64,000 nt of DNA, from contig JAZRSX010000002.1 of assembly GCA_045651725.1 (NCBI GenBank), forward strand, positions 136 through 64,135, in the 5' to 3' direction. A program made the translations under genes and the position numbers. The notes beneath the pieces were generated by a model that saw only the letters and a list, made by a program, of their open reading frames with translations, was not told the DNA's origin and did no database searches. The stretch is from Christensenellaceae bacterium. Its GTDB lineage: Bacteria; Bacillota; Clostridia; Christensenellales; Borkfalkiaceae. Positions 33,360 through 56,338 of the stretch are shown in pieces (position 1 is the stretch's first letter; each line of letters opens with the position of its first letter).

Positions 33360-33368
33360 AATATAAAT

Positions 33369-39339: not shown

Positions 39340-40896
39340 TTATAAAGACTTTGCTTGTTCAAATTCGTCTAAAATTTCTTTGCATGGCTCTTTTGTTAAA
39401 AGCGAAACGACTACGATTGCTATTGCCGATAAGATAAACGCTGGCAATAATTCGTAAATTGCAAATACGGGCACGTATTTAGAAAGCAAGTTGTTAAGCA
39501 CTAATTTCCAAATAAATACCATAGAACCGCCCGTTATCATACCTGCGATTGCGCCTTCTTTCGTAGTGCGTTTCCAAAATAGTGAGAATAACATTAAAGG
39601 TCCAAACGTTGCGCCAAAGCCCGACCACGCAAAAGACACTATTTCAAAGATGACGCTGTTTTCGTCCCACGCGATTATTAAACCGATTAAGGCTATAATA
39701 ATAAGAACTATTCTTGAAATCCACATAACCTTTTTATCGCTAACTTCTTTGCCCTTTTTGATAAAGCCCTTGTAAACGTTTACGGATACCGCTGACGACG
39801 CTATTAACAAATACGAATCCGAAGAAGAAATAGTAGCCGCTAAAATGCCCGCCATTATAAGCCCTGCAACGACAAGTGGCAAGTATTCCGTTGACATTAC
39901 GATTAAAATCTTTTCCGCGCCCGTTTTAGACGTTAATTCTGGGTGGTCGCCTAAAATTGCCCTACCTATAACGCCTATGCAAACTGCGGCAATAAGTGAA
40001 ATTACGCACCAACTTGACGCTATAATTCTTGAACGCTTAATGTCCTTTGCCTCTTTAATTGCCATAAAGCGAAGTAAAACTTGTGGCATACCGAAATATC
40101 CAAGACCCCAAGCAAGCATAGAAAACATATTTAATACGCCGTATGGTATCGCATCTTTAAACACGACTATTCCGTTTTCTACAACGGGGTTTGCCATATT
40201 CGTTAAAGAGAAATAACCTTCAATTTCCTTTGCGTTTGCAATTACGTTTGAAATACCGCCTGCGTTAACAGTGCCAACGACTATCATAACTACAAGCGCC
40301 GTAACCATAACGATTGCTTGCATAAAGTCTGATACGCTTTCCGCCAAGAAACCACCTATTAAAGTGTAAATAACAACGAAAACCGCGCCCACGATAAGCA
40401 ACACGTGATAAGAGTTTTCCCAACCGAATAAAGTTGTAAAGAGTTTTCCGCAAGTAACGAAACAACTAGCGGCGTAAACTGTAAAGAACACTAAAATGAA
40501 GATAGACGCAATAAGCATTATAACCTTGTTCTTTTCTTTAAACCTGTTGCTAAAAAAGTCTGGCACGGTTATTGCGTTTCCTGCAATTTGAGAATAATTG
40601 CGAAGCCTTTTTGCAACTAAAAGCCAGTTTACGTAAGTGCCGATGGCTAAACCAAGAGCCGTCCAAAACGCATCGGCTAAACCGCACCAGTACGCAACGC
40701 CTGGTAAACCCATTAAAAGCCAACCGCTCATATCACTTGCTTCCGCACTCATAGCGGCAACCCAAGGGCCAAGCGACCTTCCGCCTAAAAAGTAGTTTTC
40801 TGAACTTTTTTGTGAACGCTTATAAAAATACACGCCTATACCTATAACGACAGCCATATACGCTATCATAACTATAAATATTTCGGTGTTTTTCAT
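39340..40896 (-). CDS. putP: Sodium:solute symporter, PutP-like sodium/proline symporter
   Basis: SSS family, 13-TM layout, YFLGGRSLGPWV and SAEASDMSGWLLMGLPG. Confidence 0.8.
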   Translation of the reverse strand: MKNTEIFIVMIAYMAVVIGIGVYFYKRSQKSSENYFLGGRSLGPWVAAMSAEASDMSGWLLMGLPGVAYWCGLADAFWTALGLAIGTYVNWLLVAKRLRNYSQIAGNAITVPDFFSNRFKEKNKVIMLIASIFILVFFTVYAASCFVTCGKLFTTLFGWENSYHVLLIVGAVFVVIYTLIGGFLAESVSDFMQAIVMVTALVVMIVVGTVNAGGISNVIANAKEIEGYFSLTNMANPVVENGIVVFKDAIPYGVLNMFSMLAWGLGYFGMPQVLLRFMAIKEAKDIKRSRIIASSWCVISLIAAVCIGVIGRAILGDHPELTSKTGAEKILIVMSTEYLPLVVAGLIMAGILAATISSSDSYLLIASSAVSVNVYKGFIKKGKEVSDKKVMWISRIVLIIIALIGLIIAWDENSVIFEIVSFAWSGFGATFGPLMLFSLFWKRTTKEGAIAGMITGGSMVFIWKLVLNNLLSKYVPVFAIYELLPAFILSAIAIVVVSLLTKEPCKEILDEFEQAKSL

Positions 40897-41114: not shown

Positions 41115-41145
41115 AAAAAAACGTTGAAGTTTCAACGCTTTTTTA
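41115..41145 (-). terminator. Terminator ending the BCAA-related gene array
   Basis: AAAAAAACGTTGAA-gt-TTCAACGCTTTTTT. Confidence 0.8.
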
Positions 41146-41155: not shown

Positions 41156-41962
41156 TTACAAATTATAAACTTTTTTTGCGTTTTCGCTAAAAATTTTGTG
41201 ATAGTCGCTTTCGTCTAAATTTAAAGAAAGCAAAGTTTCTATCTCTTTTTTAGCGTTCCACATAGGATAATCCGACCCAAAAAGCACTCTATCCGTACCG
41301 TATCTGTAAATCATTTCTTTAATGATTTTTTTGTCTAAATAATTAAAACTTGAAGAACAGTCGACGTAAAAATTTTCTATTCCCGCATACTGTTTAGACG
41401 CTTCTTCCCAAATACTGTATCCGCCGAAATGCGCGCCTATAACGGTTAGGTCTTTAAACTCTTTTAGAATAGGTAACAGCCTATTAGGGTTAGATAAATC
41501 GTACCTATTATCGCCCGTGTGCATAAGTATAGGCAAGTTTAATTTACTGCAAATTTCATAGGCTTTAACGTAGCCTTTATCGTCAACGGCAAAACCTTGA
41601 ATATCGGGGTGAATTTTTATACCCTTTAAACCTAACTCGTATAGGTGACGAACGTCGCCAAGCATATCTTCACTTCGTGGGTGAATAGTGCCAAGACCTA
41701 TTAACTTTTGGCTATTATTCTCTACTTCTTTTGCAATAAATTCGTTTATTCTTTGAACTTGTCTTTCCGTAGTTGCAACAGACTGCACTAAAAACTTATC
41801 CACGCCCGAACCTTTTGAACTTTCTATCAAATGTTCGGTTATACCCTTTTCGCTTGACTTTTCGCTATAAAACTCATCGGTATGACGTATTGCTAAAAGT
41901 GCAATTTTAGGCGGATATATATGACAGTGCGCGTCTATGACGTAGTATTTATTGTTAACCAT
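41156..41962 (-). CDS. Amidohydrolase-2 family metal-dependent TIM-barrel hydrolase/decarboxylase-like protein
   Basis: YVIDAHCHIYP (HxH metal motif), ...MHTGD..., ...FGSDYP... Confidence 0.8.
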   Translation of the reverse strand: MVNNKYYVIDAHCHIYPPKIALLAIRHTDEFYSEKSSEKGITEHLIESSKGSGVDKFLVQSVATTERQVQRINEFIAKEVENNSQKLIGLGTIHPRSEDMLGDVRHLYELGLKGIKIHPDIQGFAVDDKGYVKAYEICSKLNLPILMHTGDNRYDLSNPNRLLPILKEFKDLTVIGAHFGGYSIWEEASKQYAGIENFYVDCSSSFNYLDKKIIKEMIYRYGTDRVLFGSDYPMWNAKKEIETLLSLNLDESDYHKIFSENAKKVYNL

Positions 41963-41978: not shown

Positions 41979-44441
41979 TTATGATTTTTTAATTCCGCAT
42001 TTTTCTATTGCTTGTTCACGCATTTTGTATTTTAAAATTTTACCTGCGGCGTTCATAGGGAATTCGTTTACAAACAAGAAGTATTTTGGAACTTTGTGCC
42101 TTGCAATAGATGCGTTGCCAAATTCACGCATTTCGCTTTCGCTTGAAGTTTCGCCTTTATGAAGAATTATCCACGCGCAACATTCTTCGCCATACTTTTC
42201 GTCTGGCACGCCAACGACTTGAACGTCGCTAACCTTTGGATTTGTTAAATAAAATTCTTCAATTTCGCGTGGGTATAAGTTTTCGCCACCGCGAATAATC
42301 ATATCTTTAAGCCTACCCGTTACTTTGTAGTAGCCGTCAGCCGTCTTCATACAAATATCGCCTGTGTGAAGCCAACCGTCTTTATCAATGGCTTGCGAAG
42401 TTGCTTCGGGCATTTTATAATATCCTTTCATAATATTAAAGCCACGCGCAACGAACTCGCCACTTTGACCATTTGGTAGTTCTTCGCCCGTTTCGGGGTC
42501 TATAATTTTACAATCAACGCCTGGAAAAGCGCTTCCAACGGTTTCAACCCTGTGGTCTAAATCTTCGTTAACTTCGCCCATCGTACACCCCGGCGACGCT
42601 TCCGTTTGACCGTAAACGGATATAATTTCGCGCATGTTCATTTCAACTGATGCCCTACGCATTAAGTCTGCCGGACAGTTTGCGCCCGCCATAATGCCCG
42701 TACGCATATACGAAAAGTCCGTCTTTGCAAAATCGGGGTGTTCAAACATTGCAATAAACATAGTCGGCACACCGTTAAAGCAAGTAATATGCTCGTCGTT
42801 TACGCAAGCAAGTGATGATTTTGGCGAAAAATATGGAATAGGACAAAGCGTACCGCCATGCGTCATCATAGAAGTCATAGAAAGCACCATACCGAAACAG
42901 TGGAACATAGGAACTTGTATCATCATTCTATCCGCCGTTGACAAATCCATTCTATCGCCTATTGTTTTACCGTTATTTACGATATTGCGGTGCGTAAGCA
43001 TAACGCCTTTTGGAAAACCCGTCGTTCCCGAAGTGTATTGCATATTGCAAACGTCGTCGGGTTTAACAAGCGATGCGCGCCTTTTAACTTCTTCTTGTGG
43101 AACAAGAGAAGATCGTGAAAGCATTTGCTCCCAAGTTAAGCACCCTTCCATACTAAAACCGACTGTAACGACGTTGCGAAGAAACGGCAACGCTTTAGAA
43201 TATAATGGCTTGCCCGCTTCTAAATTTTTAATTTCTGGGCAAAGTTCTTTGATAATTTCTTTATAATTGATATCTTTACAATACTCTATCATAACGAGAG
43301 TATGCGTGTCGGACTGCCTTAACAAATATTCGATTTCGTGAATTTTATAAGCCGTATTTACGGTAACTAAAACCGCGCCGATTTTCGTAGTTGCCCAAAA
43401 CGTTATAAACCATTGTGGAACGTTCGTTGCCCAAATTGCAACGTGGTCGCCCGCCTTTACGCCCAAAGATATTAAAGCGGCGGCGCACTCGTCAACGTCA
43501 CGACGGAATTGTTCGTAAGTTCTCGTATAGTCAAGCGTTGGATATTTAAAGGCGTATTGGTCGGGGTAGTTTTCAACCATAGTGTCAAGCACTTGTGAAA
43601 AAGTTGCGTCTATAACGTCGTACTTTTTCCAAACGAAAGAACCCGTTTTAGCCCTATTGTAATATTTTTGTACGCTATTTTTTTTATCGCGATTAAGTGA
43701 TGCAACGTAGTTTGCAAAGTGCGTAAGAACTATATCGGCATCACAAATTTCTTCGTTCCAAGCGGCGCAAATAAAGCCGTCGTAATTAAGAGAAGAAAGT
43801 GCGTTTAAAAGTTTTTGAACGTCTAAATCGCCGTCGCCGATAAGAACGGTTTTGCCGTCTTTCATATCGCCTAAACGGACGTATTTAATATAAGCGCCCA
43901 ACGTTTCAATCGTAGTTTCCGCCGATTCTTTAGCGCTAAAATAAGTGCCTCTAACGTTCCAAGACGCACCTATTGAAATAGACGAAAAATGATTGATAAT
44001 TTCTATAACTTTTTGAGTTTTAGAAAGATAACCTACGGTTTCAAACAAAAGGTTTACGTCCGCTTTTTCAGCCTTTTTAACGGCGGAAGAAAGTTTAGCG
44101 TCTAACACGTCGAACGAAACGTTTTCGTTTATATGAACTATTACGCTTTTTACACCCGAAAAAGATGCAAAATCAACGTATTTTTCAACAGTTTCGCTTG
44201 TTACGGCATCACTTTCAATAGGTTCGGGCATACGAAGTGCCGAAACGGATAGTCCCCTATTTACAAGTTTTCTTGTAGAATCGGCAACTTTGTCACGCCT
44301 TAAAATGCTGTCAAAATGCTCCGTTCTTTCTTTTATGGCATCGTATATTTCAAAACCTTCAAAACCATAATCGTAAGCATAACGGCAAGTATCCAAAAAG
44401 GTACTTCGGCTTACGTTTTTGGTAGAAAATACTATTTTCAT
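41979..44441 (-). CDS. Fusion: xylose-isomerase-like TIM barrel (about 260 N-terminal aa) + AMP-forming acyl-CoA synthetase
   Basis: N-terminus GFEGFEIYD...LLFETVG... (AP_endonuc_2-like). C-terminus YTSGTTGFPKGVMLTH, SVYGQTE, GWLHTGD, RLKDMIIRGGENLYP, KILK. Confidence 0.88.
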   Translation of the reverse strand: MKIVFSTKNVSRSTFLDTCRYAYDYGFEGFEIYDAIKERTEHFDSILRRDKVADSTRKLVNRGLSVSALRMPEPIESDAVTSETVEKYVDFASFSGVKSVIVHINENVSFDVLDAKLSSAVKKAEKADVNLLFETVGYLSKTQKVIEIINHFSSISIGASWNVRGTYFSAKESAETTIETLGAYIKYVRLGDMKDGKTVLIGDGDLDVQKLLNALSSLNYDGFICAAWNEEICDADIVLTHFANYVASLNRDKKNSVQKYYNRAKTGSFVWKKYDVIDATFSQVLDTMVENYPDQYAFKYPTLDYTRTYEQFRRDVDECAAALISLGVKAGDHVAIWATNVPQWFITFWATTKIGAVLVTVNTAYKIHEIEYLLRQSDTHTLVMIEYCKDINYKEIIKELCPEIKNLEAGKPLYSKALPFLRNVVTVGFSMEGCLTWEQMLSRSSLVPQEEVKRRASLVKPDDVCNMQYTSGTTGFPKGVMLTHRNIVNNGKTIGDRMDLSTADRMMIQVPMFHCFGMVLSMTSMMTHGGTLCPIPYFSPKSSLACVNDEHITCFNGVPTMFIAMFEHPDFAKTDFSYMRTGIMAGANCPADLMRRASVEMNMREIISVYGQTEASPGCTMGEVNEDLDHRVETVGSAFPGVDCKIIDPETGEELPNGQSGEFVARGFNIMKGYYKMPEATSQAIDKDGWLHTGDICMKTADGYYKVTGRLKDMIIRGGENLYPREIEEFYLTNPKVSDVQVVGVPDEKYGEECCAWIILHKGETSSESEMREFGNASIARHKVPKYFLFVNEFPMNAAGKILKYKMREQAIEKCGIKKS

Positions 44442-44442: not shown

Positions 44443-45828
44443 TTACGCCTCCTCGGCTACGATTTTATTTAGAGCATTTATATACGCCCTTATACTTGCG
44501 CTTATTATGTCGGTTGAAGTGCCGTTGCCCGAATAAAGTTTACCGTTGTTGCGAAGTTTTACAAGCGCCGAACCTAACGCCTCTTTACCTTCGGTTACCG
44601 ATTGCACTTGAAAATCGTCAAGCTCGTAGTGATGCCCAACACATTGTTCAATAGCGCGGAAAGCGGCGTCAATTGGACCGTCGCCTATTGCAACGCCACT
44701 AATAACTTCACCGTTGCATTTTAAAGTTATTTGAGCCATAGAAGTCGTTGCGTTACTACTTGTAGTAGTATAAGTTTCAAAGTGATAAGTTGACGGCGCT
44801 TGCATTGCGTTACTTGCAATAATCGCTTCAAATTCTTTAGCGCCTATAGCACCCCTTCTTTCGCAAACTTTTAAAAGCGCTTTATGAACGTTGCCACAGT
44901 CCGATTCCGTAAGGTCGTAGCCAAGCATTATTGCCGATTGCATTACGCTAGTTATGTTAGAATCGGCATCAAGTAAAATCTTCTTTTTGTCGCTAACCAA
45001 TTCTTCCGTATACGCTTTTGTGTTTATTTTTGAAAGCGTTTCTTCAATACTTGTGTGTATTTTAGTTGCGTTTAAGTCAATAGTTGCGTTAACGCTTGTA
45101 CCGCAGACTTTGATAGCATCTGAAAGTTGACCTAATAAAAGAGTATCTTTACCCGCAATAGCACACTTTAAGCCGTCAACCCCGTTGACGATTGATTGTA
45201 ACGCCGTTGCAACAGCCATATTGATTGCGTTGCTAACTTGTATATAAACGGGCGTGTTAACTTGACTTTTTACCTTTTTTACTATATTTGCAATTTCGTT
45301 AGGTACAAAAATACCGGCATTATCGCAAATATTTATTACGGTTGCGCCGTTTTCTTCGGCTTTTTTAGATGCTAAAATTAAGAAATCTATATTTGCCCTC
45401 GTAGCGTCAACGGCAGAAAATTCAACGTCTTGACAATAAGTTTTTGCTTCTTTTACAAGTTCGACGATTTTATCAAGCATTTTTTCTTGCTTAACGTGAT
45501 AGTTGTATTCCATTTGAATAGTAGAAACGGGAAGTTCAATTTGTAAACGTGGTTTTTTTGCTTGTTTAATGCACTCCCAAGCCTTACCAACGCTTTCTTT
45601 ATCAAACCCAACGGGGATAGAAATTATAGCGTTTTGTACGTTTTGAGCAATAGTTTTATATATGATTGCGTCTTCGCGATAATTTTTTATAGCAGGTAGT
45701 TCAATAACGTTTACACCTAACGTATCCGCATTTATTGCAATGGCAGATTTTTCCCTAAAAAGTAACGAGACTTCTCTTTCTTCCGAAAGTTTTTTAAGCG
45801 TAATGTCTGAAATACTAATTTTTTTCAT
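44443..45828 (-). CDS. 2-isopropylmalate synthase-like protein with degenerate catalytic motifs and an intact LeuA-type C-terminal regulatory domain
   Basis: Collinear with LeuA, but DTTLRDGEQ reads SDITLKKLSEE, HxH reads QVS (YIQVSNAINMAVATA), and GERAGN is absent. The C-terminal GDGPIDAAFRAIEQ...TEGKEALGSALVKL... matches the LeuA dimer/regulatory domain. Confidence 0.8.
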   Translation of the reverse strand: MKKISISDITLKKLSEEREVSLLFREKSAIAINADTLGVNVIELPAIKNYREDAIIYKTIAQNVQNAIISIPVGFDKESVGKAWECIKQAKKPRLQIELPVSTIQMEYNYHVKQEKMLDKIVELVKEAKTYCQDVEFSAVDATRANIDFLILASKKAEENGATVINICDNAGIFVPNEIANIVKKVKSQVNTPVYIQVSNAINMAVATALQSIVNGVDGLKCAIAGKDTLLLGQLSDAIKVCGTSVNATIDLNATKIHTSIEETLSKINTKAYTEELVSDKKKILLDADSNITSVMQSAIMLGYDLTESDCGNVHKALLKVCERRGAIGAKEFEAIIASNAMQAPSTYHFETYTTTSSNATTSMAQITLKCNGEVISGVAIGDGPIDAAFRAIEQCVGHHYELDDFQVQSVTEGKEALGSALVKLRNNGKLYSGNGTSTDIISASIRAYINALNKIVAEEA

Positions 45829-45870: not shown

Positions 45871-46135
45871 AAAAAAACGTTTCCGCCTCTTTGCTTTAAA
45901 GAGACGAAAACGTTAAGACAATTTCCGCGGTACCACTCTTATTCACCCTAAAAGGATGCACTTTAGATGCCAACACATCTTAACTCTATTACGGGAGTTC
46001 CCGTTTGCCGTTACTGTTACTTCACAACAACCGCTCCGCGACGAGTTCAACAATACCCTTCTAACGCCTTGCACCACACTAGCGTCTCTCTAAAAGCAAG
46101 AATAATACCTACTATTTCGCTTCATTGCGTTTAAT
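45871..46135 (-). promoter_or_regulatory. T-box riboswitch leader, specifier read as CUC (Leu)
   Basis: Minus-strand read: AUGAAGCGAAAUAGUA...AGAGAGA...GUGGUGCAAGG...GAA-CUC-G-UCGC...AGAGUGGUACCGCGG (UGGU bulge). Terminator AACGUUUUCGUCUCUUU-aaagc-AAAGAGGCGGAAACGUU plus U7. Confidence 0.85.
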
Positions 46136-46143: not shown

Positions 46144-46172
46144 ATATTATCATTATATTAACTATTTGTCAA
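46144..46172 (-). promoter_or_regulatory. Promoter of the Leu T-box unit
   Basis: Minus strand TTGACA-17-TAATAT, in the 60-nt gap after ilvE. Confidence 0.6.
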
Positions 46173-46191: not shown

Positions 46192-47253
46192 TTAAAGTTT
46201 TTTAACCCAGTTATACTTGTCTTCAATCTTACCCCATTGAATACCCGTTAAAGTATCGTAAAGGTGTTGAGTTAAAGCGCCGATTTTATTTTCGTTTATA
46301 GCGTACTTAACGTCTTTATGGCAAAGTTCACCGATAGGTGAAACGACTGCCGCCGTTCCGCAACCCCACGCTTCTTCAAGTTTGCCGTTTTCAAGCGCCG
46401 AAATAAGTTCGTCCACGCTTATAAGCCTTTCTTCAACGGTGTAGCCTTCGTCTTTTAAAAGTTCTATAATAGACTTTCTTGTAATGCCAGGAAGTATTGA
46501 GCCTGCAAGTTTAGGCGTAACTACTTTGCCGTCAATTTTAAACATAACGTTCATTGCGCCTACTTCTTCAATGTATTTTCTTTCAACGCCGTCAAGCCAC
46601 AAAACTTGTGAATAACCCTTTTCTTCGGCACGTTGACCAGCACGGTTACTTGCCGCATAGTTACCACCGCATTTTGCTTCGCCCGTACCACCGCGAACGG
46701 CACGCACGTCTTCGGATTCTATCATAATTTTAACGGGGTTAATGCCTTCTTTATAATAACTGCCAACAGGCGAAGTTATAATTACGAAAGTTGCGTTTTT
46801 TACGGAGTGAACGCCCAAAGTTTCGTCGTTGCCAAACATAAATGGTCTTATGTATAAAGATGTTCCTTCTTTTTTAGGCACCCAGTTCTTTTCAATTTCT
46901 ATAAAAGTCGTTAAGGCTTGTAAAGCGTCTTCTTCGTCAATCGTAGGAAGACACATACGCTCTGCCGAACGGTTAAGCCTTTTGATGTTTTCCATAGGTC
47001 TAAAAAGTTGAATTGTGCCGTCGCTTGTTCTATACGCTTTTAAACCTTCAAAAATTTCCGAACCATAGTGAAGAACGGTTGACGCTGGGTGTATAGAAAG
47101 GTTTTGAAACGGAACTATTCTAGCGTCGTGCCAACCCTTTCCTTCGGCATAGTCCATAATGAACATATGGTCTGTAAACACTTTGCCAAATCCAAGTGTA
47201 GATTCGTCTTTAATGCTACCTAATACTTCTTTTTTAGTTATTTTAATTTCCAT
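46192..47253 (-). CDS. ilvE: Branched-chain amino acid aminotransferase
   Basis: Class-IV aminotransferase, long (about 350 aa) form: FEGLKAYR, GTGEAKCGGNYA, GITR.S. Confidence 0.92.
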   Translation of the reverse strand: MEIKITKKEVLGSIKDESTLGFGKVFTDHMFIMDYAEGKGWHDARIVPFQNLSIHPASTVLHYGSEIFEGLKAYRTSDGTIQLFRPMENIKRLNRSAERMCLPTIDEEDALQALTTFIEIEKNWVPKKEGTSLYIRPFMFGNDETLGVHSVKNATFVIITSPVGSYYKEGINPVKIMIESEDVRAVRGGTGEAKCGGNYAASNRAGQRAEEKGYSQVLWLDGVERKYIEEVGAMNVMFKIDGKVVTPKLAGSILPGITRKSIIELLKDEGYTVEERLISVDELISALENGKLEEAWGCGTAAVVSPIGELCHKDVKYAINENKIGALTQHLYDTLTGIQWGKIEDKYNWVKKL

Positions 47254-47264
47254 AATAACACCCC

Positions 47265-47801
47265 TTAATAATCTCTACCTAGTTTTAATGCGTTAAGGTT
47301 GATTTGCAACATATCTTCGTGCTTTGCCGAAACTACTTTTTTAAGCGCGTTGTAAACGCCTTCTTCGTTTTCAAAACCGCCCGTTTTTTCTAAAACTTTG
47401 CCCATAATAATCATATTTGCAAGTTTAGGCATTTTGTTTTCGGACGCAAGCGCCGTTGATGGAATATAGTAAACTTCAACGTCAGTTCTATTAACTTTTC
47501 TATCAATTAAAGTAGAGTCTACGAATATTTTACCGCCACTTTTTACGCTGTTTTCGTATGCGTCAAGCGATGGAAGATTCATTGCAATTAAAACGTCTGG
47601 TTTAGATACGATAGGCGAGCCGATTGCATCGTCGCTAATAATTACGCTACAATTTGCCGTACCGCCACGCATTTCTGGACCGTAAGATGGTAGCCAACTT
47701 ACGTTTTTGCCGTCGGTTAAGCCCTTGTATGCAAGCACTTTTCCCGAAAAGAGTATGCCTTGACCGCCAAAGCCCGCAAATAAATAATTAGTCGTACTCA
47801 T
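47265..47801 (-). CDS. 2-oxoacid:ferredoxin oxidoreductase gamma subunit
   Basis: [14 protein letters not shown]... ATG 47801 follows AAGGGGG; the track start at 47846 overlaps the beta subunit. Confidence 0.88.
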
Positions 47802-47805
47802 ATGC

Positions 47806-48555
47806 TTATTCCCCCTTTTCACTAGACCTGTCTTTATAAACGCCAAGTGGATAATACGGTATCATTTTTTCATCTATCCATTGAAGTGCTTTTTCAGGTG
47901 TTAAACCCCAGTTTGTTGGGCAACTAGATAAAATTTCTACAAGAGAAAAACCCTTGTTGTTTATTTGATTTTCAAATGCTTTTTTAATAGCCTTTTTAGC
48001 GTTTTTTACGTTTTTAACGTTGTTTACGGCAACTCTTGTAATAAATTCCGGTCCGTCAAGTTGCGATAACATTTCGCAAACTTTTACAGGAAAACCGCAA
48101 TCTTCAACTTTTCTTCCGTATGGCGAAGTTTGAGTTATTTGACCAGGAAGTGACGTTGGCGCCATTTGACCGCCAGTCATACCGTAAATTGCGTTGTTTA
48201 TAAATATAATAGTTATATTTTCGTTTCTTGCGGCAGAGTGTACGGTTTCCGCCATACCGATAGACGCAAGGTCGCCGTCACCTTGATAAGTGAATACGAC
48301 GTTTTGTGGAAGTGAACGCTTAACGCCCGTTGCAACGGCAGGCGCTCTACCGTGCGCCGCTTCTATCATATCGCAGTTATAATAGTCGTATGCCATAACC
48401 GCACAACCAACGGGTGCAACGCCTATGGTTTTGCCTTGAATATCAAGTTCGTCTATTACTTCGGCAACAAGACGGTGTACTATACCGTGCGTGCAACCTG
48501 GACAGTAGTGAAGTGGAACGTCTGCAAGTGCCTTTGGTTTATCAAAAACTACCAT
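47806..48555 (-). CDS. 2-oxoacid:ferredoxin oxidoreductase beta (TPP-binding) subunit
   Basis: YCPGCTHG, GDGD...IGM, NNAIYGMTGGQ. Confidence 0.9.
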   Translation of the reverse strand: MVVFDKPKALADVPLHYCPGCTHGIVHRLVAEVIDELDIQGKTIGVAPVGCAVMAYDYYNCDMIEAAHGRAPAVATGVKRSLPQNVVFTYQGDGDLASIGMAETVHSAARNENITIIFINNAIYGMTGGQMAPTSLPGQITQTSPYGRKVEDCGFPVKVCEMLSQLDGPEFITRVAVNNVKNVKNAKKAIKKAFENQINNKGFSLVEILSSCPTNWGLTPEKALQWIDEKMIPYYPLGVYKDRSSEKGE

Positions 48556-49619
48556 TATTTATTACCCCCTTTGTTAGCGTCTATTATACTTTGTAATACT
48601 TGTTCTGGCGATGGTATCATACCGCCACTGCGGTTGCATAAAGTTACAGGCACTTTACCTTCAACCGACAAGCGCACGTCTTCAATCATTTGACCCATAG
48701 AAAGTTCAACCGATATAATTTGCTTAACTTTATCTGCAACTTTCTTGTATGCGTCTTGTGGGAAAGGCCAAAGCGTAATAGGTCTAATTAAACCTACTTT
48801 TATGCCCATTTCTCTTGCCATATTAACGGCGTTTCTTGCAACTCTTGACGCAATGCCGAAAGCAGTTACGATAATTTCAGCATCGTCAATCAAATATTCT
48901 TCGTGCATAGTTTCGGTTTGTTCAATTTTTTTGTATCTTTCAAACCTTTCAATATTCGTTTGTTCAAGTTTTTCGGGTTTAAGGTATAAAGAGTTTACAA
49001 CGTTATGCTCTCTTTTCAATTCCGTACCCGTAGTTGCCCAAGGCTTTTCGATAGGCGCGCCTATTTCGTAGTCAAGGCTAACGGGTTCCATCATTTGACC
49101 AAGCGTACCGTCGGCTAAAATCATAGAAGTCATACGGTATTTATCGGCTAAATCAAACCCTTTAACGGTTAAGTCCGCCATTTCTTGAACGGATGCCGGT
49201 GCAAAAACAAGCATATGAAAATCGCCGTGCGCACCGCCCTTTGTCGCTTGAAAATAGTCCGATTGCGATGGTTGAATACCGCCAAGACCTGGACCACCGC
49301 GTTGTACGTTAACAACGAGTGAAGGAAGGTCCGCGCCCGCCAAATAAGAAAGACCTTCGCCTTTAAGTGAAATTCCTGGGCTTGAAGAAGAAGTCATACA
49401 ACGCTTGCCCGTTGCCGAAACGCCGTAAACCATATTGATAGCGGCAATTTCGCTTTCCGCTTGTAAAAATACACCGCCAACCTTTGGCATTCTTTTAGCC
49501 ATATAAGCCGCAATTTCCGTTTGTGGCGTTATAGGATAACCAAAATAGTGCTTGCAACCTGCAATTATTGCAGCCTCTGCAATAGCTTCATTACCTTTCA
49601 TTAAAACTTTATCTTTCAT
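48555..49619 (-). CDS. 2-oxoacid:ferredoxin oxidoreductase alpha subunit (VorB/KorA-like)
   Basis: GNEAIAEAAI.AGC..YFGYPITPQTEI. ATG 49619 follows GAAAGGTGA; the track start is 49634. Confidence 0.9.
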   Translation of the reverse strand: MKDKVLMKGNEAIAEAAIIAGCKHYFGYPITPQTEIAAYMAKRMPKVGGVFLQAESEIAAINMVYGVSATGKRCMTSSSSPGISLKGEGLSYLAGADLPSLVVNVQRGGPGLGGIQPSQSDYFQATKGGAHGDFHMLVFAPASVQEMADLTVKGFDLADKYRMTSMILADGTLGQMMEPVSLDYEIGAPIEKPWATTGTELKREHNVVNSLYLKPEKLEQTNIERFERYKKIEQTETMHEEYLIDDAEIIVTAFGIASRVARNAVNMAREMGIKVGLIRPITLWPFPQDAYKKVADKVKQIISVELSMGQMIEDVRLSVEGKVPVTLCNRSGGMIPSPEQVLQSIIDANKGGNK

Positions 49620-49623
49620 ACCA

Positions 49624-49830
49624 TCACCTTTCAACCTTTATGATACAGTCTGGGCACATAGTAGCGCAAAATGCACACGCTATGCACGCTTCGGGTTTTA
49701 CCGCTTCTACGGGGTGGTGCCCTTTACTATTGATTTTATCTTGCGAAAGTGCAAGTACGCCCTTTGGACATACGCCCACGCACAATCCGCAACCTTTACA
49801 TTTTTCACTTTTAAAAGTCAACGTTGCCAT
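49624..49830 (-). CDS. 2-oxoacid:ferredoxin oxidoreductase delta subunit (2x[4Fe-4S] ferredoxin)
   Basis: CKGCGLCVGVCP and CIACAFCATMCP. Confidence 0.9.
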   Translation of the reverse strand: MATLTFKSEKCKGCGLCVGVCPKGVLALSQDKINSKGHHPVEAVKPEACIACAFCATMCPDCIIKVER

Positions 49831-49842
49831 ATAGGTTACTCC

Positions 49843-50502
49843 TTATAATTTTTTTTGCAATTTTATAGCATATAAATCGTTTATTTTATCTTTTAACGGT
49901 TCGTATAGATTTTCGCTAACAGTCGTCATAACGACGGGCAAACCTGTTAACTTTGAAATTTCGCTTGCATAATCTTGACTAGACAAAACGTCATCTATCG
50001 TCGTTTCTTGACCTAAATTAGAGTTGTTTATTATACCCGTAAAATTAATTTTGCAAGCGTACTCTATTTCTTCTTTAACTTCTATCGTGCTTTTTGCGTC
50101 ACTTGTCAAAGGTCTAAATTTATTGACGACGTAGAACATATCGTAGTCGTTTTCGTCAACTATTTTGCTTGAAAGCCTGCCAAGTGCAAGCGCACCGCGG
50201 TCGTCTCCGCCAACGTCTAGTATAAACGAAGTGGTTTTATCGTCTATAACGCCGTAAATTTCTTGTGGCAAGGCGGGTATATCTACGTTAGAGTTTGCAT
50301 ATTTAGAACAAATTAGTTTGATATCGTTGCTATTAAAAAGTTCTTCGCTATCTTTCGTTCTAAAATATGGGTTAACTATGTCTATATCCGCAATAGCCAC
50401 CTTTTGTTTAATTTTTCTTAATTCTAGCGCTAAATTGACGGCGATATTAGTTTTACCGCTACCAAAATGCCCCGAAATAATCGTTATTCTTTTAAAATTC
50501 AT
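49843..50502 (-). CDS. MinD/ParA/CooC-like P-loop NTPase
   Basis: ISGHFGSGKTNIAVNLA (deviant Walker A region). ATG 50502 lies 1 nt after the upstream stop; the track start 50532 overlaps it. Confidence 0.8.
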   Translation of the reverse strand: MNFKRITIISGHFGSGKTNIAVNLALELRKIKQKVAIADIDIVNPYFRTKDSEELFNSNDIKLICSKYANSNVDIPALPQEIYGVIDDKTTSFILDVGGDDRGALALGRLSSKIVDENDYDMFYVVNKFRPLTSDAKSTIEVKEEIEYACKINFTGIINNSNLGQETTIDDVLSSQDYASEISKLTGLPVVMTTVSENLYEPLKDKINDLYAIKLQKKL

Positions 50503-50503
50503 T

Positions 50504-52792
50504 TTATAGCCTACTTCTTTGAATTTTACCACTTATAGTTTTAGGAAGTTCGGTTTTAAACTCAATAATTCGTGGATATTTGTATGGCGCAGTACGTTTT
50601 TTAACGTAGTTTTGAATTTCAACCTTTAATTCTTCGCTAGGCTCTTTACCTTTAACTAAAACTATGCTTGCTTTAACGACTTGTCCCCTAACTTCGTCTG
50701 GGTATGGCGAAACACCACACTCTAATACGTAAGGAAGTTCCATTATAACGCTTTCAATTTCAAAAGGCCCTATTCTATAACCAGAAGATTTAATAACGTC
50801 GTCAGCCCTACCAACGTACCAGAAGAAACCGTCTTCATCGCACCACGCTAAATCGCCCGTGTGATAGTAGCCGTCGTGCCAAACTTCAGCCGTTTTTTCT
50901 TGGTCTTTATAATAACCTTTAAACAAACCGCAAGGCACTTTTTCGCTAGTTTTTATACAAATTTCGCCCGTTTCACCCGTTCGAACGGCGTTGCCGTCAC
51001 TATCAAGCAAGCAAACGTCATATATAGGTACGGGTTTACCCATTGAGCCGGGTTTTGTTTTTGCGCCCCTTAAATTACCTATAACAAGCGTGGTTTCCGT
51101 TTGACCAAAGCCTTCGGATATTGAAAGCCCCGTTGCATCTTTAAACTGTTTGTAAACTTCTAAATTTAGCGCTTCGCCCGCCGTAGTTATATGGCTTATT
51201 GAAGATAAGTCGTATTGCGAAATATCTTGCTTAACAAGCATACGGAGCATTGTTGGTGGCGCGCAGAAAGTGGTTATGCCGTATTTTTTAAACAATGGCA
51301 ATATGTCGCACGCGTTAAAGCGGTTAAAGTCGTAAGTAAATACGGCGCCTTCCGAAAGCCATTGACCGTATAATTTACCCCAAAGCGCCTTTGCCCAACC
51401 CGTATCAGATATCGTAAAGTGTAAACCGTCGGGGTTAACTTTGTGCCAGTATTTTGCGGTGTGGAAATGCCCTAAAACGTATTTATAACTGTGTTCGGCA
51501 ATTTTTGGATAGCCCGTTGTTCCCGAAGTAAAGAACATAAGCATAGTATCGTCGCCACCAGGGCTTAACGCAGTTCTTTCAAAATGAGTGCTAAATAACG
51601 TGCTTTCTTCGTCAAAGTCGTGCCAACCGTCTTTACCGCCACCCGTTAAAATTTTGTGTTTTAACGTTTTGCAATTTGCACTTGCTATATCGACTTGTTC
51701 GCTTGCCGTACCCTTTGACGTACAAATTACGGCGCTTACGCCCGCTTGATTAAACCTATACTCAAAGTCTTTTGCTAAAAGTTGGTTCATAGCAGGTATT
51801 ACTATTGCGCCAAGTTTATGTAATCCTAATATAACGTGCCAGAATTGATAATCTCTACCTAAAACAAGCATTACCCTATCGCCCTTTTTAATGCCAAGCG
51901 ATTTAAAGTAGTTTGCAGAACGGCAAGAGTATTTTTTGATATCTTTAAAGGTAAACCTTCTTTCAACGCCTTCGTTATCTAAATGTAAAAGCGCAAGTTT
52001 GTTTGGTTCTTTATTTGCAATTTCGTCTACGATATCAAAGGCAAAGTTAAAGGTTTCAGCGTTTTTAAACTCAATTTTCGTTGGAGTTCCGTTTTCGTCA
52101 ACTTCCGCGTCAATAAACTTTTTGTAAACGCGTTCCTTTTTATCTTTTACGTAAACTTGCTTTGCTTGTTTAGGCTCTATAATCGCGCCGTCAATAGGGT
52201 TTTCGCCCGTTGGGTTTAAAACTATTGCGTAGAATATACAATCTTTACCGCCAACGGCAATCATGCCGTGTGGGGTTGAACTGTCGTAATAAATACTGTC
52301 GCCCGCGTTTAATATTTCTTCGTGGTCGCCGATTTTTATTTTTAAACTACCTTGTAAAACTATGTCGCATTCTTGCCCTGTGTGAGTAGTTAACTCTATG
52401 GGTTTTTCTTCCGCCTCTTTACTGTAAGCGTTAACGACGTATAAAGGTTCGGCAATACGCCTTTTGAAAGCAGCCGCAAGGTTATAGTAAGTCATACCGT
52501 GCGCTTGCTCTATTCTTTGCCCTTCGCCACTTCTTGTAAGAGTATATGATTTTAAGGTGGGGCTTCTGCCTTCAATAATATCCATAACGTCTACGTTAAA
52601 GGCAAGCGCGCACCTATAAATGAACGCAAAGTTAAGGTCGGCAAGTCCGTTTTCGCAAAGTTCGTATTGCTCAACCGTAACGTCCGTCTTTTTCGCCATT
52701 TCTTCTACGGTTAAGTTTTCAATTTGCCTTAACTCGCGAATTCTTCGCGCCATTTCTTTAATTTTTAAGTCTAATCCGTTGATGTTTTGCAT
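50504..52792 (-). CDS. Fusion: XRE HTH + cupin + medium-chain-type AMP-forming acyl-CoA synthetase (paralog A, behind the Val T-box)
   Basis: HTH LTVEEMAKKTDVTVEQYELCENG. Cupin HTGQECDIVLQGSL...STPHGM. ACS FFTSGTTGYPKIAEHSY, GFGQTET, YYHTGD, DDVIKSSGYRIGP, GKIQR. Confidence 0.9.
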   Translation of the reverse strand: MQNINGLDLKIKEMARRIRELRQIENLTVEEMAKKTDVTVEQYELCENGLADLNFAFIYRCALAFNVDVMDIIEGRSPTLKSYTLTRSGEGQRIEQAHGMTYYNLAAAFKRRIAEPLYVVNAYSKEAEEKPIELTTHTGQECDIVLQGSLKIKIGDHEEILNAGDSIYYDSSTPHGMIAVGGKDCIFYAIVLNPTGENPIDGAIIEPKQAKQVYVKDKKERVYKKFIDAEVDENGTPTKIEFKNAETFNFAFDIVDEIANKEPNKLALLHLDNEGVERRFTFKDIKKYSCRSANYFKSLGIKKGDRVMLVLGRDYQFWHVILGLHKLGAIVIPAMNQLLAKDFEYRFNQAGVSAVICTSKGTASEQVDIASANCKTLKHKILTGGGKDGWHDFDEESTLFSTHFERTALSPGGDDTMLMFFTSGTTGYPKIAEHSYKYVLGHFHTAKYWHKVNPDGLHFTISDTGWAKALWGKLYGQWLSEGAVFTYDFNRFNACDILPLFKKYGITTFCAPPTMLRMLVKQDISQYDLSSISHITTAGEALNLEVYKQFKDATGLSISEGFGQTETTLVIGNLRGAKTKPGSMGKPVPIYDVCLLDSDGNAVRTGETGEICIKTSEKVPCGLFKGYYKDQEKTAEVWHDGYYHTGDLAWCDEDGFFWYVGRADDVIKSSGYRIGPFEIESVIMELPYVLECGVSPYPDEVRGQVVKASIVLVKGKEPSEELKVEIQNYVKKRTAPYKYPRIIEFKTELPKTISGKIQRSRL

Positions 52793-52815
52793 AAATTTAC
52801 CCCTTTTTTGAAACG

Positions 52816-56309: not shown

Positions 56310-56338
56310 TTTTTTATCTCCTTTTTTCTAAATAATGC

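What the first reader, a model, noticed from the sequence alone, without database searches (positions are those of the whole stretch)
44443..45828. LeuA-like pseudoenzyme keeps the leucine-type regulatory domain but has lost the DRE-TIM catalytic residues, and is the first gene behind the Leu T-box
The protein is collinear with 2-isopropylmalate synthase (..PRLQIELPVSTIQMEYNYH.., DVEFSAVDA, ATVINICDNAGI). However, every catalytic or metal-binding signature I can align is substituted. DTTLRDGEQ reads SDITLKKLSEE. HCHND reads QVSNA. GERAGN is absent, and the SHESGIHQDG subdomain is missing. The C-terminal LeuA-dimer / allosteric domain is well preserved (GDGPIDAAFRAI, TEGKEALG). A dead catalytic barrel with a preserved leucine-sensing module, co-transcribed with an acyl-CoA synthetase fusion, suggests a regulatory or scaffold subunit, for example leucine feedback on isovalerate activation. 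That role is inference only.
Basis: partly seen in the sequence, partly recalled or inferred. Interest (0 to 1): 0.62.

Follow-up and report, generated by a model that had tools for sequence, protein, structure and literature searches.

The report
Dead LeuA partner of isovalerate ligase
This gene encodes a catalytically dead copy of the first leucine-biosynthesis enzyme that keeps an intact leucine-sensing pocket and is always encoded directly in front of one unusual acyl-CoA synthetase, so it most likely acts as that enzyme's leucine-responsive regulatory subunit in gut bacteria that make leucine from isovalerate.

Summary
ORF 44443..45828(-) encodes a 461-aa LeuA homologue with a DRE-TIM barrel and a LeuA_dimer domain (AF2 pLDDT 92; TM 0.92 to Listeria LeuA). 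Its Arg/Asp, HxH and GERAGN motifs are replaced or deleted, and about 35 residues carrying the HxSGIHQDG subdomain are missing. This is not a decaying gene. It belongs to an unnamed family found in at least 536 species genomes and about 105 clusters at 50% identity. All members lack the catalytic set, and all are under purifying selection (dN/dS 0.11 for the barrel, 0.03 for the regulatory domain). The nine effector-pocket columns read IDLF(S/A)AGTI, as in true LeuAs, and are the most conserved part of the protein. The gene is always followed by a TIM-barrel + AMP-binding fusion: 76/76 genome loci, 79/79 loci found through the partner, and relatives down to 31% identity. A Leu (CUC) T-box precedes it in 76/81 loci of the window's clade. 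Next to it lie Val- and Ile-T-box MbcS-like ligases, VOR and BCAT, which together form a reductive-carboxylation route from branched-chain fatty acids to branched-chain amino acids. Best reading: a HisZ-like, leucine-sensing pseudoenzyme subunit of an isovalerate-CoA ligase. Leucine binding, complex formation and the ligase's substrate are inferred, not shown.

The parts
46144..46172 (-). Promoter-like site (TTGACA-17-TAATAT with TG) directly upstream of the T-box
   Evidence: Consensus scan only
45897..46134 (-). T-box leader with specifier codon CUC (Leu)
   Evidence: Rfam RF00230, 127.7 bits (gathering 93). The specifier was read from the cmscan alignment as GAA-CUC-G. It is conserved upstream of the gene in 76/81 loci of this clade, CUC in all but one (CUG).
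45876..45914 (-). T-box terminator hairpin (17 pairs plus a U tract)
   Evidence: it overlaps the 3' end of the T-box model.
44443..45828 (-). Dead LeuA paralogue (461 aa), the finding itself
45151..45828 (-). DRE-TIM (HMGL-like) barrel, aa 1-226, without a metal site. K12-K13 replace Arg-Asp (45790..45795). Q197 and S199 replace the two His (45232..45240). GERAGN is deleted after aa 226.
   Evidence: fold; dN/dS 0.11
44842..45150 (-). Shortened accessory region, aa 227-329. Subdomain I with HxSGIHQDG is deleted. The subdomain-II motif GYxLxxxD..V is kept.
   Evidence: least conserved segment (0.36)
44446..44841 (-). LeuA_dimer allosteric domain, aa 330-461. Effector-pocket residues are I386, D387, L403, F406, S410, A417, G419, T439 and I441 (GDGPID = 44668..44685).
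   Evidence: Pfam 1e-33; pocket mapping through 3f6g and 1sr9/3fig; conservation 0.88; dN/dS 0.03
43647..44441 (-). N-terminal xylose-isomerase-like TIM domain (aa 1-265) of the 820-aa partner. The His motifs of the usual metal site are absent in this clade.
   Evidence: Pfam AP_endonuc_2, 7.7e-10; motif comparison
41979..43646 (-). AMP-forming acyl-CoA synthetase part (aa 266-820) of the partner; inferred isovalerate-CoA ligase
   Evidence: Pfam AMP-binding 5.6e-94 plus AMP-binding_C; NCBIfam PRK12583 670 bits, below its cutoff of 832; 89-94% identical across loci. The substrate is inferred from the Leu T-box.
41156..41962 (-). Amidohydro_2 protein, third gene of the operon; role unknown
   Evidence: Pfam 7.9e-34; follows the pair in about half of the loci
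41115..41144 (-). Intrinsic terminator closing the three-gene operon
   Evidence: 13-pair stem plus a T run
46192..47253 (-). Branched-chain aminotransferase (context: last pathway step)
   Evidence: NCBIfam PRK13357, 493 bits against a cutoff of 307
47265..49830 (-). 2-oxoisovalerate:ferredoxin oxidoreductase: gamma 47265..47846, beta 47806..48555, alpha 48555..49634, delta ferredoxin 49624..49830
   Evidence: Pfam POR, TPP_enzyme_C, POR_N/PFOR_II; VorB 540 bits against a cutoff of 399; 68-aa 2x[4Fe-4S] ORF
50504..53073 (-). Val T-box (52841..53073, specifier GUA) and the 762-aa HTH-cupin-ACS (50504..52792)
   Evidence: best NCBIfam hit MbcS at 445 bits, below its cutoff
54045..56596 (-). Ile T-box (56359..56596, specifier AUC) and the 754-aa HTH-cupin-ACS (54045..56309)
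   Evidence: best NCBIfam hit MbcS at 429 bits, below its cutoff

Best explanation
The gene encodes a non-catalytic paralogue of 2-isopropylmalate synthase, a pseudoenzyme. I propose that it is the leucine-sensing regulatory subunit of the enzyme encoded 1 nt downstream, an AMP-forming acyl-CoA synthetase with an extra N-terminal TIM domain. The proposed mechanism has four steps. (1) When tRNA-Leu is uncharged, the CUC T-box lets transcription read into the operon. (2) The two translationally coupled products assemble. The dead LeuA dimerises through its barrel and LeuA_dimer domains as LeuA does, and it docks on the ligase, plausibly on the ligase's own non-catalytic TIM domain. (3) The ligase activates isovalerate to isovaleryl-CoA. 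The neighbouring VOR reductively carboxylates this to 2-oxoisocaproate, and BCAT transaminates that to leucine. (4) When free leucine rises, it binds the conserved LeuA-type pocket at the regulatory-domain dimer interface. The resulting rigidification, which is how Leu inhibits real LeuA, is passed to the ligase and lowers its activity. This gives fast feedback on the committed, ATP-consuming step, on top of the slower T-box control. As with HisZ and HisG, the subunit may also be needed for full ligase activity. Shown here: loss of the catalytic set, the fold, purifying selection, pocket conservation, obligate gene pairing, the Leu T-box, and the gene content of the cluster. Inferred: Leu binding, the physical complex, the direction of the effect, and isovalerate as the substrate.
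For: Catalytic loss. Arg/Asp, HxH and GERAGN are replaced or deleted and subdomain I is excised. This holds in all of about 105 divergent representatives and in the 77 full-length LeuA-like genes of a second clade: none has HxH, GERxGN or HxSGIH, and one matches the RDGxQ pattern. Not decaying. The family is in at least 536 species genomes. dN/dS is 0.11 (barrel), 0.12 (linker) and 0.03 (regulatory). The fold is intact, with pLDDT 92 and TM 0.92 to 3ewb. Function centred on the regulatory domain. Within-family identity is 54% for the regulatory domain against 35% for the barrel, whereas true LeuAs show 38% against 49%. The family's regulatory domain is as close to true LeuAs (37.3%) as they are to each other (37.7%). 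The nine pocket columns, mapped through LiCMS 3f6g and Mtb LeuA 1sr9/3fig, read IDLF(S/A)AGTI as in true LeuAs and are 0.88 conserved, against 0.68 for the rest of the domain. Obligate pairing. The TIM-ACS fusion follows in 76/76 genome loci, in relatives of 40%, 34%, 32%, 32% and 31% identity in unrelated neighbourhoods, and reciprocally in 79/79 loci found through the partner's TIM domain. Stop and start codons are 1 nt apart. Leucine logic. A CUC T-box is present in 76/81 loci. Pathway context. Val (GUA) and Ile (AUC) T-boxes drive two MbcS-like ligases. MbcS takes 2-methylbutyrate and isobutyrate but takes isovalerate poorly (PMC10026030), which fits a separate ligase class for Leu. VorB and BCAT pass their curated cutoffs. 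In L091 the pair, BCAT, ferredoxin and VOR form one gene string. Carboxylation of isovalerate to Leu is documented for rumen microbes (PMC7356843). In real LeuA, Leu acts by rigidifying the accessory and regulatory domains (PMC9860122).
Against: There is no direct evidence for Leu binding, for a complex, or for any effect on the ligase. No complex model could be computed here. The pocket residue lists are recalled from the literature. They were checked only by the fact that all 15 recalled residue letters match the PDB chains at the predicted positions. Subdomain I, which in LeuA helps transmit the allosteric signal by capping the partner active site, is deleted, so transmission would need a new route. 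T-box control is not universal: about half of a second clade and the L091 locus lack it. The ligase's substrate is inferred from context only. Its best NCBIfam hit (PRK12583) is below cutoff, and no close solved homologue fixes its specificity. The barrel keeps about 29 well-conserved positions with dN/dS 0.11, so it may do more than provide a scaffold. RNA data were uninformative.
Confidence: 0.5

Rival explanations
1. It is a structural or assembly subunit only. The dead LeuA dimer is a scaffold that dimerises, stabilises or activates the ligase, or tethers it to VOR. The LeuA_dimer domain serves only for dimerisation, and no ligand is sensed.
For: The pairing is obligate and translationally coupled. 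The barrel is under purifying selection. The partner's own TIM domain looks non-catalytic in this clade, which suggests a docking role. The LeuA_dimer domain is also a dimerisation domain (Pfam name).
Against: The columns that line the effector pocket in ligand-bound LiCMS and Mtb LeuA are the most conserved in the protein and keep the LeuA-type residues. A pure dimerisation role would not require that. The regulatory domain is more constrained here (54% within-family identity, dN/dS 0.03) than in real, Leu-regulated LeuAs (38%).
Confidence: 0.2
2. The barrel has a new ligand-binding or catalytic role. The metal-free barrel, perhaps together with the ligase's TIM domain, binds a pathway intermediate (isovalerate, isovaleryl-CoA or 2-oxoisocaproate). 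It either channels this between ligase and VOR or senses it, or it carries out a new metal-independent reaction.
For: Several residues that LeuAs also conserve on the barrel survive: D8, T10, S102, E107, Y108, D141, R144, D169. F24 and K113 are invariant in the family. Barrel dN/dS is 0.11. An Amidohydro_2 gene of unknown role is often co-transcribed.
Against: All residues known to do chemistry or hold the metal are gone, and the position of the catalytic Glu is variable (V, E, L, G and others). The acetyl-CoA-side subdomain is deleted. The surviving conserved barrel residues are mostly those shared with LeuA, not a new constellation. The barrel is the faster-evolving domain.
Confidence: 0.15
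3. It is still an active 2-isopropylmalate or citramalate synthase that uses a non-canonical active site.
For: Overall homology and fold are those of LeuA. It sits under a Leu T-box, as leuA does in related bacteria (L089).
Against: It has lost Arg, the metal Asp, both metal His and GERAGN, and the subdomain carrying the second catalytic His is deleted. It scores at less than half of every LeuA/CimA/NifV equivalog cutoff. No leuBCD genes lie next to it in any of the roughly 165 loci, whereas a LeuA-length relative (P0254) sits next to an aconitase-family gene.
Confidence: 0.03
4. It is a decaying pseudogene, a relic of leuA in a lineage that lost the classical pathway.
For: The catalytic motifs are lost.
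Against: The reading frame is intact in hundreds of species. dN/dS is 0.03-0.12. The model has pLDDT 92. The family spans identities down to 31% with constant length and a constant partner.
Confidence: 0.01

Closest known systems
2-isopropylmalate synthase LeuA (bacterial short form, e.g. N. meningitidis 3rmj, L. monocytogenes 3ewb; Mtb 1sr9/3fig)
   Same: It has the same DRE-TIM barrel fold (TM 0.92 to 3ewb), the same subdomain-II motif, and the same C-terminal LeuA_dimer domain with an identical effector-pocket signature, IDLF(S/A)AGTI. It often sits under a Leu T-box.
   Different: It has no Arg/Asp, HxH or GERAGN. About 35 residues of subdomain I are deleted. It is about 460 aa rather than about 510. 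It scores below all curated cutoffs. It is never next to leuBCD and always next to a TIM-ACS fusion. The regulatory domain, not the barrel, is the most constrained part.
HisZ, the dead histidyl-tRNA synthetase paralogue that is the regulatory subunit of short-form ATP phosphoribosyltransferase HisG (own knowledge)
   Same: This is the same concept. A catalytically dead paralogue of an enzyme that naturally binds the pathway's end-product amino acid is recruited as an obligate partner of the first enzyme of that amino acid's pathway, and it conveys feedback inhibition.
   Different: The fold and ancestry are unrelated. Here the complex and the allosteric effect are not demonstrated. The partner is an acyl-CoA synthetase rather than a phosphoribosyltransferase.
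IlvN/IlvH, the ACT-type small regulatory subunits of acetohydroxyacid synthase (own knowledge)
   Same: A separate polypeptide binds a branched-chain amino acid at a dimer interface and regulates the catalytic subunit encoded next to it.
   Different: IlvN is a small ACT-domain protein, not a degenerate enzyme. The fold differs from LeuA_dimer.
MbcS, the S. aureus methylbutyryl-CoA synthetase (PMC10026030)
   Same: It is the closest named relative of the two neighbouring Val- and Ile-T-box ligases, and it activates exogenous 2-methylbutyrate and isobutyrate.
   Different: MbcS feeds fatty-acid synthesis, has no HTH-cupin extension, and is not known to have a pseudoenzyme partner. The Leu-operon ligase belongs to another ACS class (PRK12583-like).
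Reductive carboxylation of branched-chain volatile fatty acids to BCAA in rumen bacteria (cited in PMC7356843)
   Same: The gene content matches that physiology: ligases, VOR and BCAT, with anabolic T-box control.
   Different: That physiology was described without the activating enzymes or their regulation. The pseudoenzyme partner is not part of any description I could find.

Membership tests
2-isopropylmalate synthase (LeuA, EC 2.3.3.13) / Claisen-condensing DRE-TIM metallolyases | HMGL-like (DRE-TIM) barrel fold | tested here: met
   Pfam PF00682, 2e-31; Foldseek 3ewb TM 0.92, rmsd 1.6 A
2-isopropylmalate synthase (LeuA, EC 2.3.3.13) / Claisen-condensing DRE-TIM metallolyases | Divalent-metal site: the Asp of LRDG plus the two His of HxH | tested here: not met
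   K13, Q197 and S199 occupy these columns. They are absent in the whole family.
2-isopropylmalate synthase (LeuA, EC 2.3.3.13) / Claisen-condensing DRE-TIM metallolyases | Substrate Arg (LRDG), the GERAGN loop, and the catalytic His of subdomain I (HxSGIHQDG) | tested here: not met
   R is replaced by K12. A 4-residue deletion lies at GERAGN, and a deletion of about 35 residues removes subdomain I.
2-isopropylmalate synthase (LeuA, EC 2.3.3.13) / Claisen-condensing DRE-TIM metallolyases | C-terminal LeuA_dimer allosteric domain | tested here: met
   PF08502, 1e-33; pocket signature identical to true LeuAs
2-isopropylmalate synthase (LeuA, EC 2.3.3.13) / Claisen-condensing DRE-TIM metallolyases | Score above the curated equivalog cutoff (NCBIfam) | tested here: not met
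   Best hit 262 bits against a cutoff of 532; TIGR00973 238 against 599
2-isopropylmalate synthase (LeuA, EC 2.3.3.13) / Claisen-condensing DRE-TIM metallolyases | Synthase activity with acetyl-CoA and 2-oxoisovalerate | not testable with these tools
   An enzyme assay is needed.
Pseudoenzyme regulatory subunit (HisZ-type) | Paralogue of an active enzyme that lacks its catalytic residues but is kept under purifying selection | tested here: met
Pseudoenzyme regulatory subunit (HisZ-type) | Obligate co-occurrence with one catalytic partner | tested here: met
   76/76, 79/79 in the reciprocal test, and distant members
Pseudoenzyme regulatory subunit (HisZ-type) | Retained binding site for the end-product effector | tested here: inconclusive
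   The pocket columns are conserved and LeuA-like. Binding itself was not measured, and the pocket residue list is recalled from the literature.
Pseudoenzyme regulatory subunit (HisZ-type) | Physical complex with the partner and allosteric control of it | not testable with these tools
   No multimer prediction or biochemistry is available here.
T-box regulon, leucine class | T-box leader with a Leu specifier codon and a terminator directly upstream | tested here: met
   RF00230, 127.7 bits, CUC specifier, terminator at 45914..45876; 76/81 loci. Only about half of a second clade has it.
Branched-chain fatty acid to BCAA reductive-carboxylation pathway | Acyl-CoA ligase, 2-oxoisovalerate:ferredoxin oxidoreductase and BCAT encoded together under anabolic control | tested here: met
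   This concerns gene content and regulation only; flux was not tested.

The most novel reading that the evidence does not exclude
The dead LeuA, the ligase's own degenerate TIM barrel and the AMP-forming ligase form a previously unknown type of allosteric acyl-CoA synthetase complex. A recycled LeuA regulatory module gives leucine feedback on isovalerate activation. It would be the first amino-acid-regulated ACS that works through a pseudoenzyme subunit. It would also be the committed, regulated step of the long-known but genetically undefined isovalerate-to-leucine route of rumen and gut anaerobes. The lineage would have kept the sensor of the classical pathway's first enzyme, and possibly its T-box, and transplanted it onto the first enzyme of a replacement pathway.
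Probability: 0.4. Interest if true: 0.82.

Novelty: new variant of a known kind. Interest (0 to 1): 0.72.

Why it matters
1. It defines a large, unannotated protein family. Every source name seen is 'hypothetical protein'. The family is in at least 536 species genomes of uncultured herbivore-gut Clostridia, and automatic annotation could easily mislabel it as 2-isopropylmalate synthase, which would wrongly credit these genomes with classical leucine biosynthesis.

2. It is a clean, testable case of enzyme-to-regulator evolution. The catalytic half is gutted, the allosteric half is preserved more strictly than in the parent enzyme, and the gene is locked to a new partner.

3. Together with the Leu/Val/Ile T-box triad, VOR and BCAT, it gives candidate genes and a control logic for how rumen and gut anaerobes make branched-chain amino acids from branched-chain volatile fatty acids. 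That process matters for ruminant nutrition and for gut cross-feeding.

4. The isolated regulatory module could serve as a leucine-specific sensor part.

Tried and rejected
- The first AF2 run used a shallow alignment of 22 sequences at 71-80% identity. It gave pLDDT 54 and was discarded. The 109-sequence alignment gave pLDDT 92.
- RNA evidence was sought. One bovine-gut metatranscriptome holds only a 261-nt contig in the ligase gene and nothing on the LeuA-like gene, so it says nothing about co-transcription.
- Nine literature searches covered reductive carboxylation with isovalerate and leucine, LeuA_dimer with pseudoenzyme, T-box with isopropylmalate synthase and ACS, and isovaleryl-CoA with ferredoxin oxidoreductase. 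None found a description of this family or gene pair. The two papers opened to check the effector-pocket residue lists do not give them, so those lists rest on my memory plus the letter-match check.
- LeuA-length proteins with partly degenerate motifs (P0254, P0260) were examined as possible evolutionary intermediates. P0254 sits next to an aconitase-family gene and P0260 sits behind a Leu T-box. They belong to ordinary leu loci, not to this family.
- Short metagenome proteins that join a LeuA_dimer domain to MFS, MBOAT, 7TMR or response-regulator fragments were considered as alternative architectures. I rejected them as probable assembly chimeras.
- PDB searches with the ligase and with its TIM domain found no close solved homologue that fixes the substrate or function.
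- I looked for a common element in the leaders that lack a T-box and found no consistent conservation.
Full report
OBSERVATION

Pfam finds an HMGL-like barrel at residues 4-226 (E 2e-31), which covers only profile positions 2-222 of 260, and a LeuA_dimer domain at 330-456 (E 1e-33). All NCBIfam LeuA, citramalate-synthase and homocitrate-synthase equivalogs score at less than half of their curated cutoffs; the best is 262 bits against 532.

HMMER alignments to solved LeuA structures place DITLKKLSE under DTTLRDGEQ and QVSNA under HCHND. So the substrate Arg, the metal Asp and both metal His are replaced, by K12, K13, Q197 and S199. An alignment with four canonical LeuAs shows two further losses: a 4-residue deletion where GERAGN lies, and a deletion of about 35 residues that excises the (A/V)FxHxSGIHQDG..TYE segment of subdomain I. 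The regulatory-domain signatures GDGPIDA, TEGxEAxG, STDI and AYxxAxNK are all present.

A first AF2 model from a shallow alignment was poor (pLDDT 54). A model built from 109 diverse family members has pLDDT 92.1. Its barrel superposes on Listeria LeuA 3ewb with TM 0.92 and rmsd 1.6 A, and full-length M. tuberculosis LeuA, including the leucine-bound 3fig, aligns over both domains. One small correction: D8 and T10 of the 'DTTL' motif survive, and it is the Arg-Asp pair that is lost.

IT IS A FAMILY, NOT AN ACCIDENT

The word-indexed search returned over 7,800 relatives. The best 120 are 71-80% identical and 460-472 aa long (nearly all 461-462), and where they carry a name at all it is 'hypothetical protein'. 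The 80 best are all MAGs of uncultured Clostridia (Christensenellaceae, Acutalibacteraceae, Congzhengia, Eubacteriales), and those whose record titles name a source come from ruminant and other herbivore guts.

The exhaustive search of 50%-identity representatives found 276 representatives below 1e-30. About 105 of them are full-length proteins of 453-497 aa at 29-48% identity. Canonical LeuAs of 500 aa or more appear only at about 200 bits. In an alignment of all of these, every ~460-aa member lacks RDGEQ, HxH and GERAGN, while the canonical LeuAs at the bottom of the list keep all three.

Purifying selection acts on all parts. Nei-Gojobori dN/dS over 172 pairs with dS between 0.05 and 1.2 is 0.11 for the barrel, 0.12 for the linker and 0.03 for the regulatory domain. 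dS is near 1, so these values are approximate. A decaying pseudogene is excluded.

WHERE THE CONSTRAINT LIES

In the 109-sequence family alignment the mean frequency of the commonest residue is 0.48 in the barrel, 0.36 in the linker and 0.69 in the regulatory domain. Mean pairwise identity within the family is 35% for the barrel and 54% for the regulatory domain. Among the four true LeuAs it is 49% and 38%, so the constraint is inverted. The family's regulatory domain is as similar to true LeuAs (37.3%) as true LeuAs are to each other (37.7%) (only four LeuAs were used).

A profile of the C-terminal domain aligns to the two solved ligand-bound regulatory domains: Leptospira citramalate synthase (3f6g/3f6h) and M. 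tuberculosis LeuA (1sr9/3fig). I recalled the effector-contacting residues from the structural papers on these two proteins: Y430, D431, L451, Y454, I458, T464, V468, P493 and Q495 for LiCMS, and L535, A536, V551, Y554, A558 and A565 for Mtb LeuA. All of them land on the right letters in those chains, and both sets fall on the same profile columns. This cross-validates the mapping, but I could not confirm the lists from a paper in the library. In the window protein these columns are I386, D387, L403, F406, S410, A417, G419, T439 and I441.

Across the family they read I(93)/V, D(102), L(104), F(104), S/A, A(103), G(108), T(103) and I(98)/V, counted out of 109 sequences. The signature IDLF(S/A)AGTI is identical to that of the true LeuAs (IDLFAAGTI, IDLFSAGTI). 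These columns are more conserved (0.88) than the rest of the domain (0.68). So the best-preserved feature of the whole protein is a LeuA-type effector pocket.

THE PARTNER

The next gene, 41979..44441, starts 1 nt after the stop codon. It encodes 820 aa: a weak AP_endonuc_2 (xylose-isomerase-like TIM) domain followed by a complete AMP-binding acyl-CoA synthetase. The best NCBIfam hit is PRK12583 at 670 bits, below its cutoff of 832.

- In all 76 genome loci with enough downstream DNA, the LeuA-like gene is followed within a few bases by this same fusion.
- The same holds for relatives only 40% (L081-L083), 34% (L086), 32% (L084, L091) and 31% (L085) identical, some of them in unrelated neighbourhoods.
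- Reciprocally, I scanned metagenome contigs with a profile of the partner's TIM domain. All 79 loci with enough upstream DNA had a LeuA-like gene directly upstream. It is 35-42% identical to the query and 463-474 aa long. None of the 77 full-length copies has HxH, GERxGN or HxSGIH. All 70 loci with enough downstream DNA had the AMP domain fused.

The pair is therefore the invariant unit.

The partner's TIM domain is itself peculiar. Distant orthologues keep the WxVHH and HVHxxD motifs typical of the metal site of that superfamily. The window's clade reads WNVRGTY and YVRLGD instead. Here it is probably a second non-catalytic barrel, which makes it a plausible docking surface.

REGULATION AND OPERON

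A promoter-like site (46172 to 46144) precedes a T-box (45897..46134, 127.7 bits). Its specifier reads CUC (Leu) and its terminator lies at 45914..45876. The three genes (dead LeuA, ligase, Amidohydro_2) follow, and a strong terminator at 41144..41115 closes the unit.

A T-box motif lies upstream of the gene in 76 of 81 loci of this clade, with CUC in all but one (CUG, also Leu). It is less general in the second clade. There, 36 of 71 loci have it by motif search, and Rfam found none upstream in 17 motif-less loci. L091 has none. A LeuA-length relative (L089) also sits behind a CUC T-box, so the leader may have been inherited from an ancestral leuA. That is speculation.

PATHWAY CONTEXT

Immediately upstream on the same strand lie:
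- a BCAT (493 bits against a cutoff of 307);
- a four-subunit 2-oxoisovalerate:ferredoxin oxidoreductase (VorB at 540 bits against a cutoff of 399, plus a 68-aa ferredoxin subunit);
- a ParA/CbiA-like protein;
- a 762-aa HTH-cupin-ACS behind a T-box with specifier GUA (Val);
- then DUF554 and a 754-aa HTH-cupin-ACS behind a T-box with specifier AUC (Ile).

Both of those ligases hit NCBIfam MbcS best, though below its cutoff. MbcS is selective for 2-methylbutyrate and isobutyrate and uses isovalerate poorly (PMC10026030). That fits a different ligase class being used behind the Leu T-box.

T-box control switches genes on when the cognate tRNA is uncharged, and AMP-forming ligases run towards the thioester. 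The cluster therefore reads as anabolic: branched-chain acid to acyl-CoA (ligase), to 2-oxoacid (VOR run in reverse), to amino acid (BCAT). This matches the carboxylation of isovalerate to leucine reported for rumen microbes (PMC7356843). In L091 the dead LeuA, TIM-ACS, BCAT, CbiA-like protein, ferredoxin and VOR alpha/beta/gamma genes form one co-directional string. In L084 and L086, VOR gamma and BCAT directly precede the pair. Substrates and flux are inferred, not shown.

MECHANISM PROPOSED

The most economical reading is a HisZ-like arrangement. A dead paralogue of the classical pathway's first enzyme retains that enzyme's end-product sensor and serves as the regulatory subunit of the first enzyme of the replacement pathway. 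It may also be an activating subunit.

In real LeuA, leucine binds at the regulatory-domain dimer interface and inhibits by rigidifying the accessory and regulatory domains over the barrel (PMC9860122). Here the same module would act on the ligase, plausibly through its TIM domain. T-box control would then set the amount of enzyme according to tRNA-Leu charging, and the pseudoenzyme would set its activity according to free leucine.

I put about 0.85 on 'non-catalytic LeuA paralogue functionally tied to this ligase' and about 0.5 on the full leucine-feedback mechanism.

RIVALS

- A ligand-blind scaffold (0.2). This is disfavoured by the pocket conservation.
- A barrel with a new ligand-binding, channelling or catalytic role (0.15). 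This is not excluded, because about 29 barrel positions are well conserved, mostly ones shared with LeuA.
- A still-active synthase (0.03).
- A pseudogene (0.01, refuted).

COMPARISON AND NOVELTY

The protein is a homologue of LeuA but fails the family's defining catalytic features, so it should not be filed or annotated as LeuA. In concept it resembles HisZ and IlvN/IlvH.

I found no description of this family, of the gene pair, or of a pseudoenzyme-regulated acyl-CoA synthetase in the searchable literature. That library does not hold most subscription-journal papers.

I rate it a new variant of a known kind (a pseudoenzyme regulatory subunit within the LeuA superfamily) and put its interest at about 0.72. 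It is widespread, cleanly delimited, unannotated and readily testable. It also bears on a classic but genetically under-defined route of amino-acid synthesis in gut anaerobes.

LIMITS

- There is no biochemical or structural evidence for the complex or for leucine binding.
- No multimer model could be computed.
- The RNA data were uninformative.
- Whether carrier genomes lack leuABCD could not be tested.
- The pocket residue lists are recalled from memory and were checked only by letter matching.

Noticed in passing
window 46192..56596 (- strand): Three T-boxes with specifiers for Leu (CUC), Val (GUA) and Ile (AUC) each precede a different acyl-CoA synthetase. Around them lie a four-subunit VOR, a BCAT and a ParA/CbiA-like gene. 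This is a compact candidate cluster for making all three branched-chain amino acids from branched-chain volatile fatty acids.
   Followed up: partly
window 50504..52792 and 54045..56309 (- strand): The Val- and Ile-T-box ligases carry an N-terminal HTH (XRE-type) plus cupin extension of about 240 aa in front of an MbcS-like ACS. The cupin may be a small-molecule sensor analogous to the dead LeuA of the Leu ligase. The architecture recurs next to the pair in many loci.
   Followed up: partly
window 41982..43646 (- strand); loci L001-L080: The AMP-binding part of the 820-aa partner is 89-94% identical across loci whose dead LeuA (66-75%) and TIM domain (65-80%) are much more diverged. This reflects either unusually strong constraint or recent spread of that segment.
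   Followed up: no
window 43647..44441 (- strand); L081, L084, L086, L091: The partner's xylose-isomerase-like TIM domain has lost the WxVHH and HVHxxD His motifs in the window's clade (WNVRGTY, YVRLGD), whereas distant clades keep them. This may be a second pseudo-domain in the same system.
   Followed up: partly
window 41156..41962 (- strand): An Amidohydro_2 (PF04909) gene is the third gene of the Leu T-box operon and follows the pair in about half of the loci. Its role in a leucine-related operon is unexplained.
   Followed up: no
L103, L104, L105, L111, L116 (leaders upstream of the LeuA-like gene): In second-clade loci that lack a T-box, several related leaders contain a small Leu-rich ORF (..LVSLLLGGLLLG.. 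or ..IVSLLKGGLI.GRS..). This might be a leader-peptide attenuator. The loci are not independent, and no common RNA element was found.
   Followed up: partly
P0254 (L088 7001..8536), P0260 (L089 2005..3516): These LeuA-length proteins (503-511 aa) keep subdomain I but have partly degenerate catalytic motifs (TTLCDGEQ with IRAYNDLG; STLCEGER with HSQNDLG). P0254 is next to an aconitase-family (LeuC-like) gene and P0260 is behind a Leu T-box. They may be independent cases of LeuA degeneration.
   Followed up: partly
P0238, P0246, P0251, P0256 (metagenome proteins): In these proteins a LeuA_dimer domain 55-61% identical to the query's is joined to fragments of MFS, response-regulator, 7TMR-HDED or MBOAT proteins. 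They are probably assembly chimeras. If real, they would be other uses of the same sensor module.
   Followed up: partly
window 4769..4845 (- strand) and 33162..33732 (+ strand): Rfam gathering-threshold hits elsewhere in the window: an AdoCbl-II riboswitch aptamer and a cluster of six tRNA genes.
   Followed up: no
window 39340..40896 (- strand): A sodium:solute symporter (SSF) gene lies just downstream of the operon's terminator. Weakly related SSF genes (27-30% identity) lie near the pair in a few other loci (L005, L036, L048, L059, L078). It may be a transporter for a pathway substrate.
   Followed up: no
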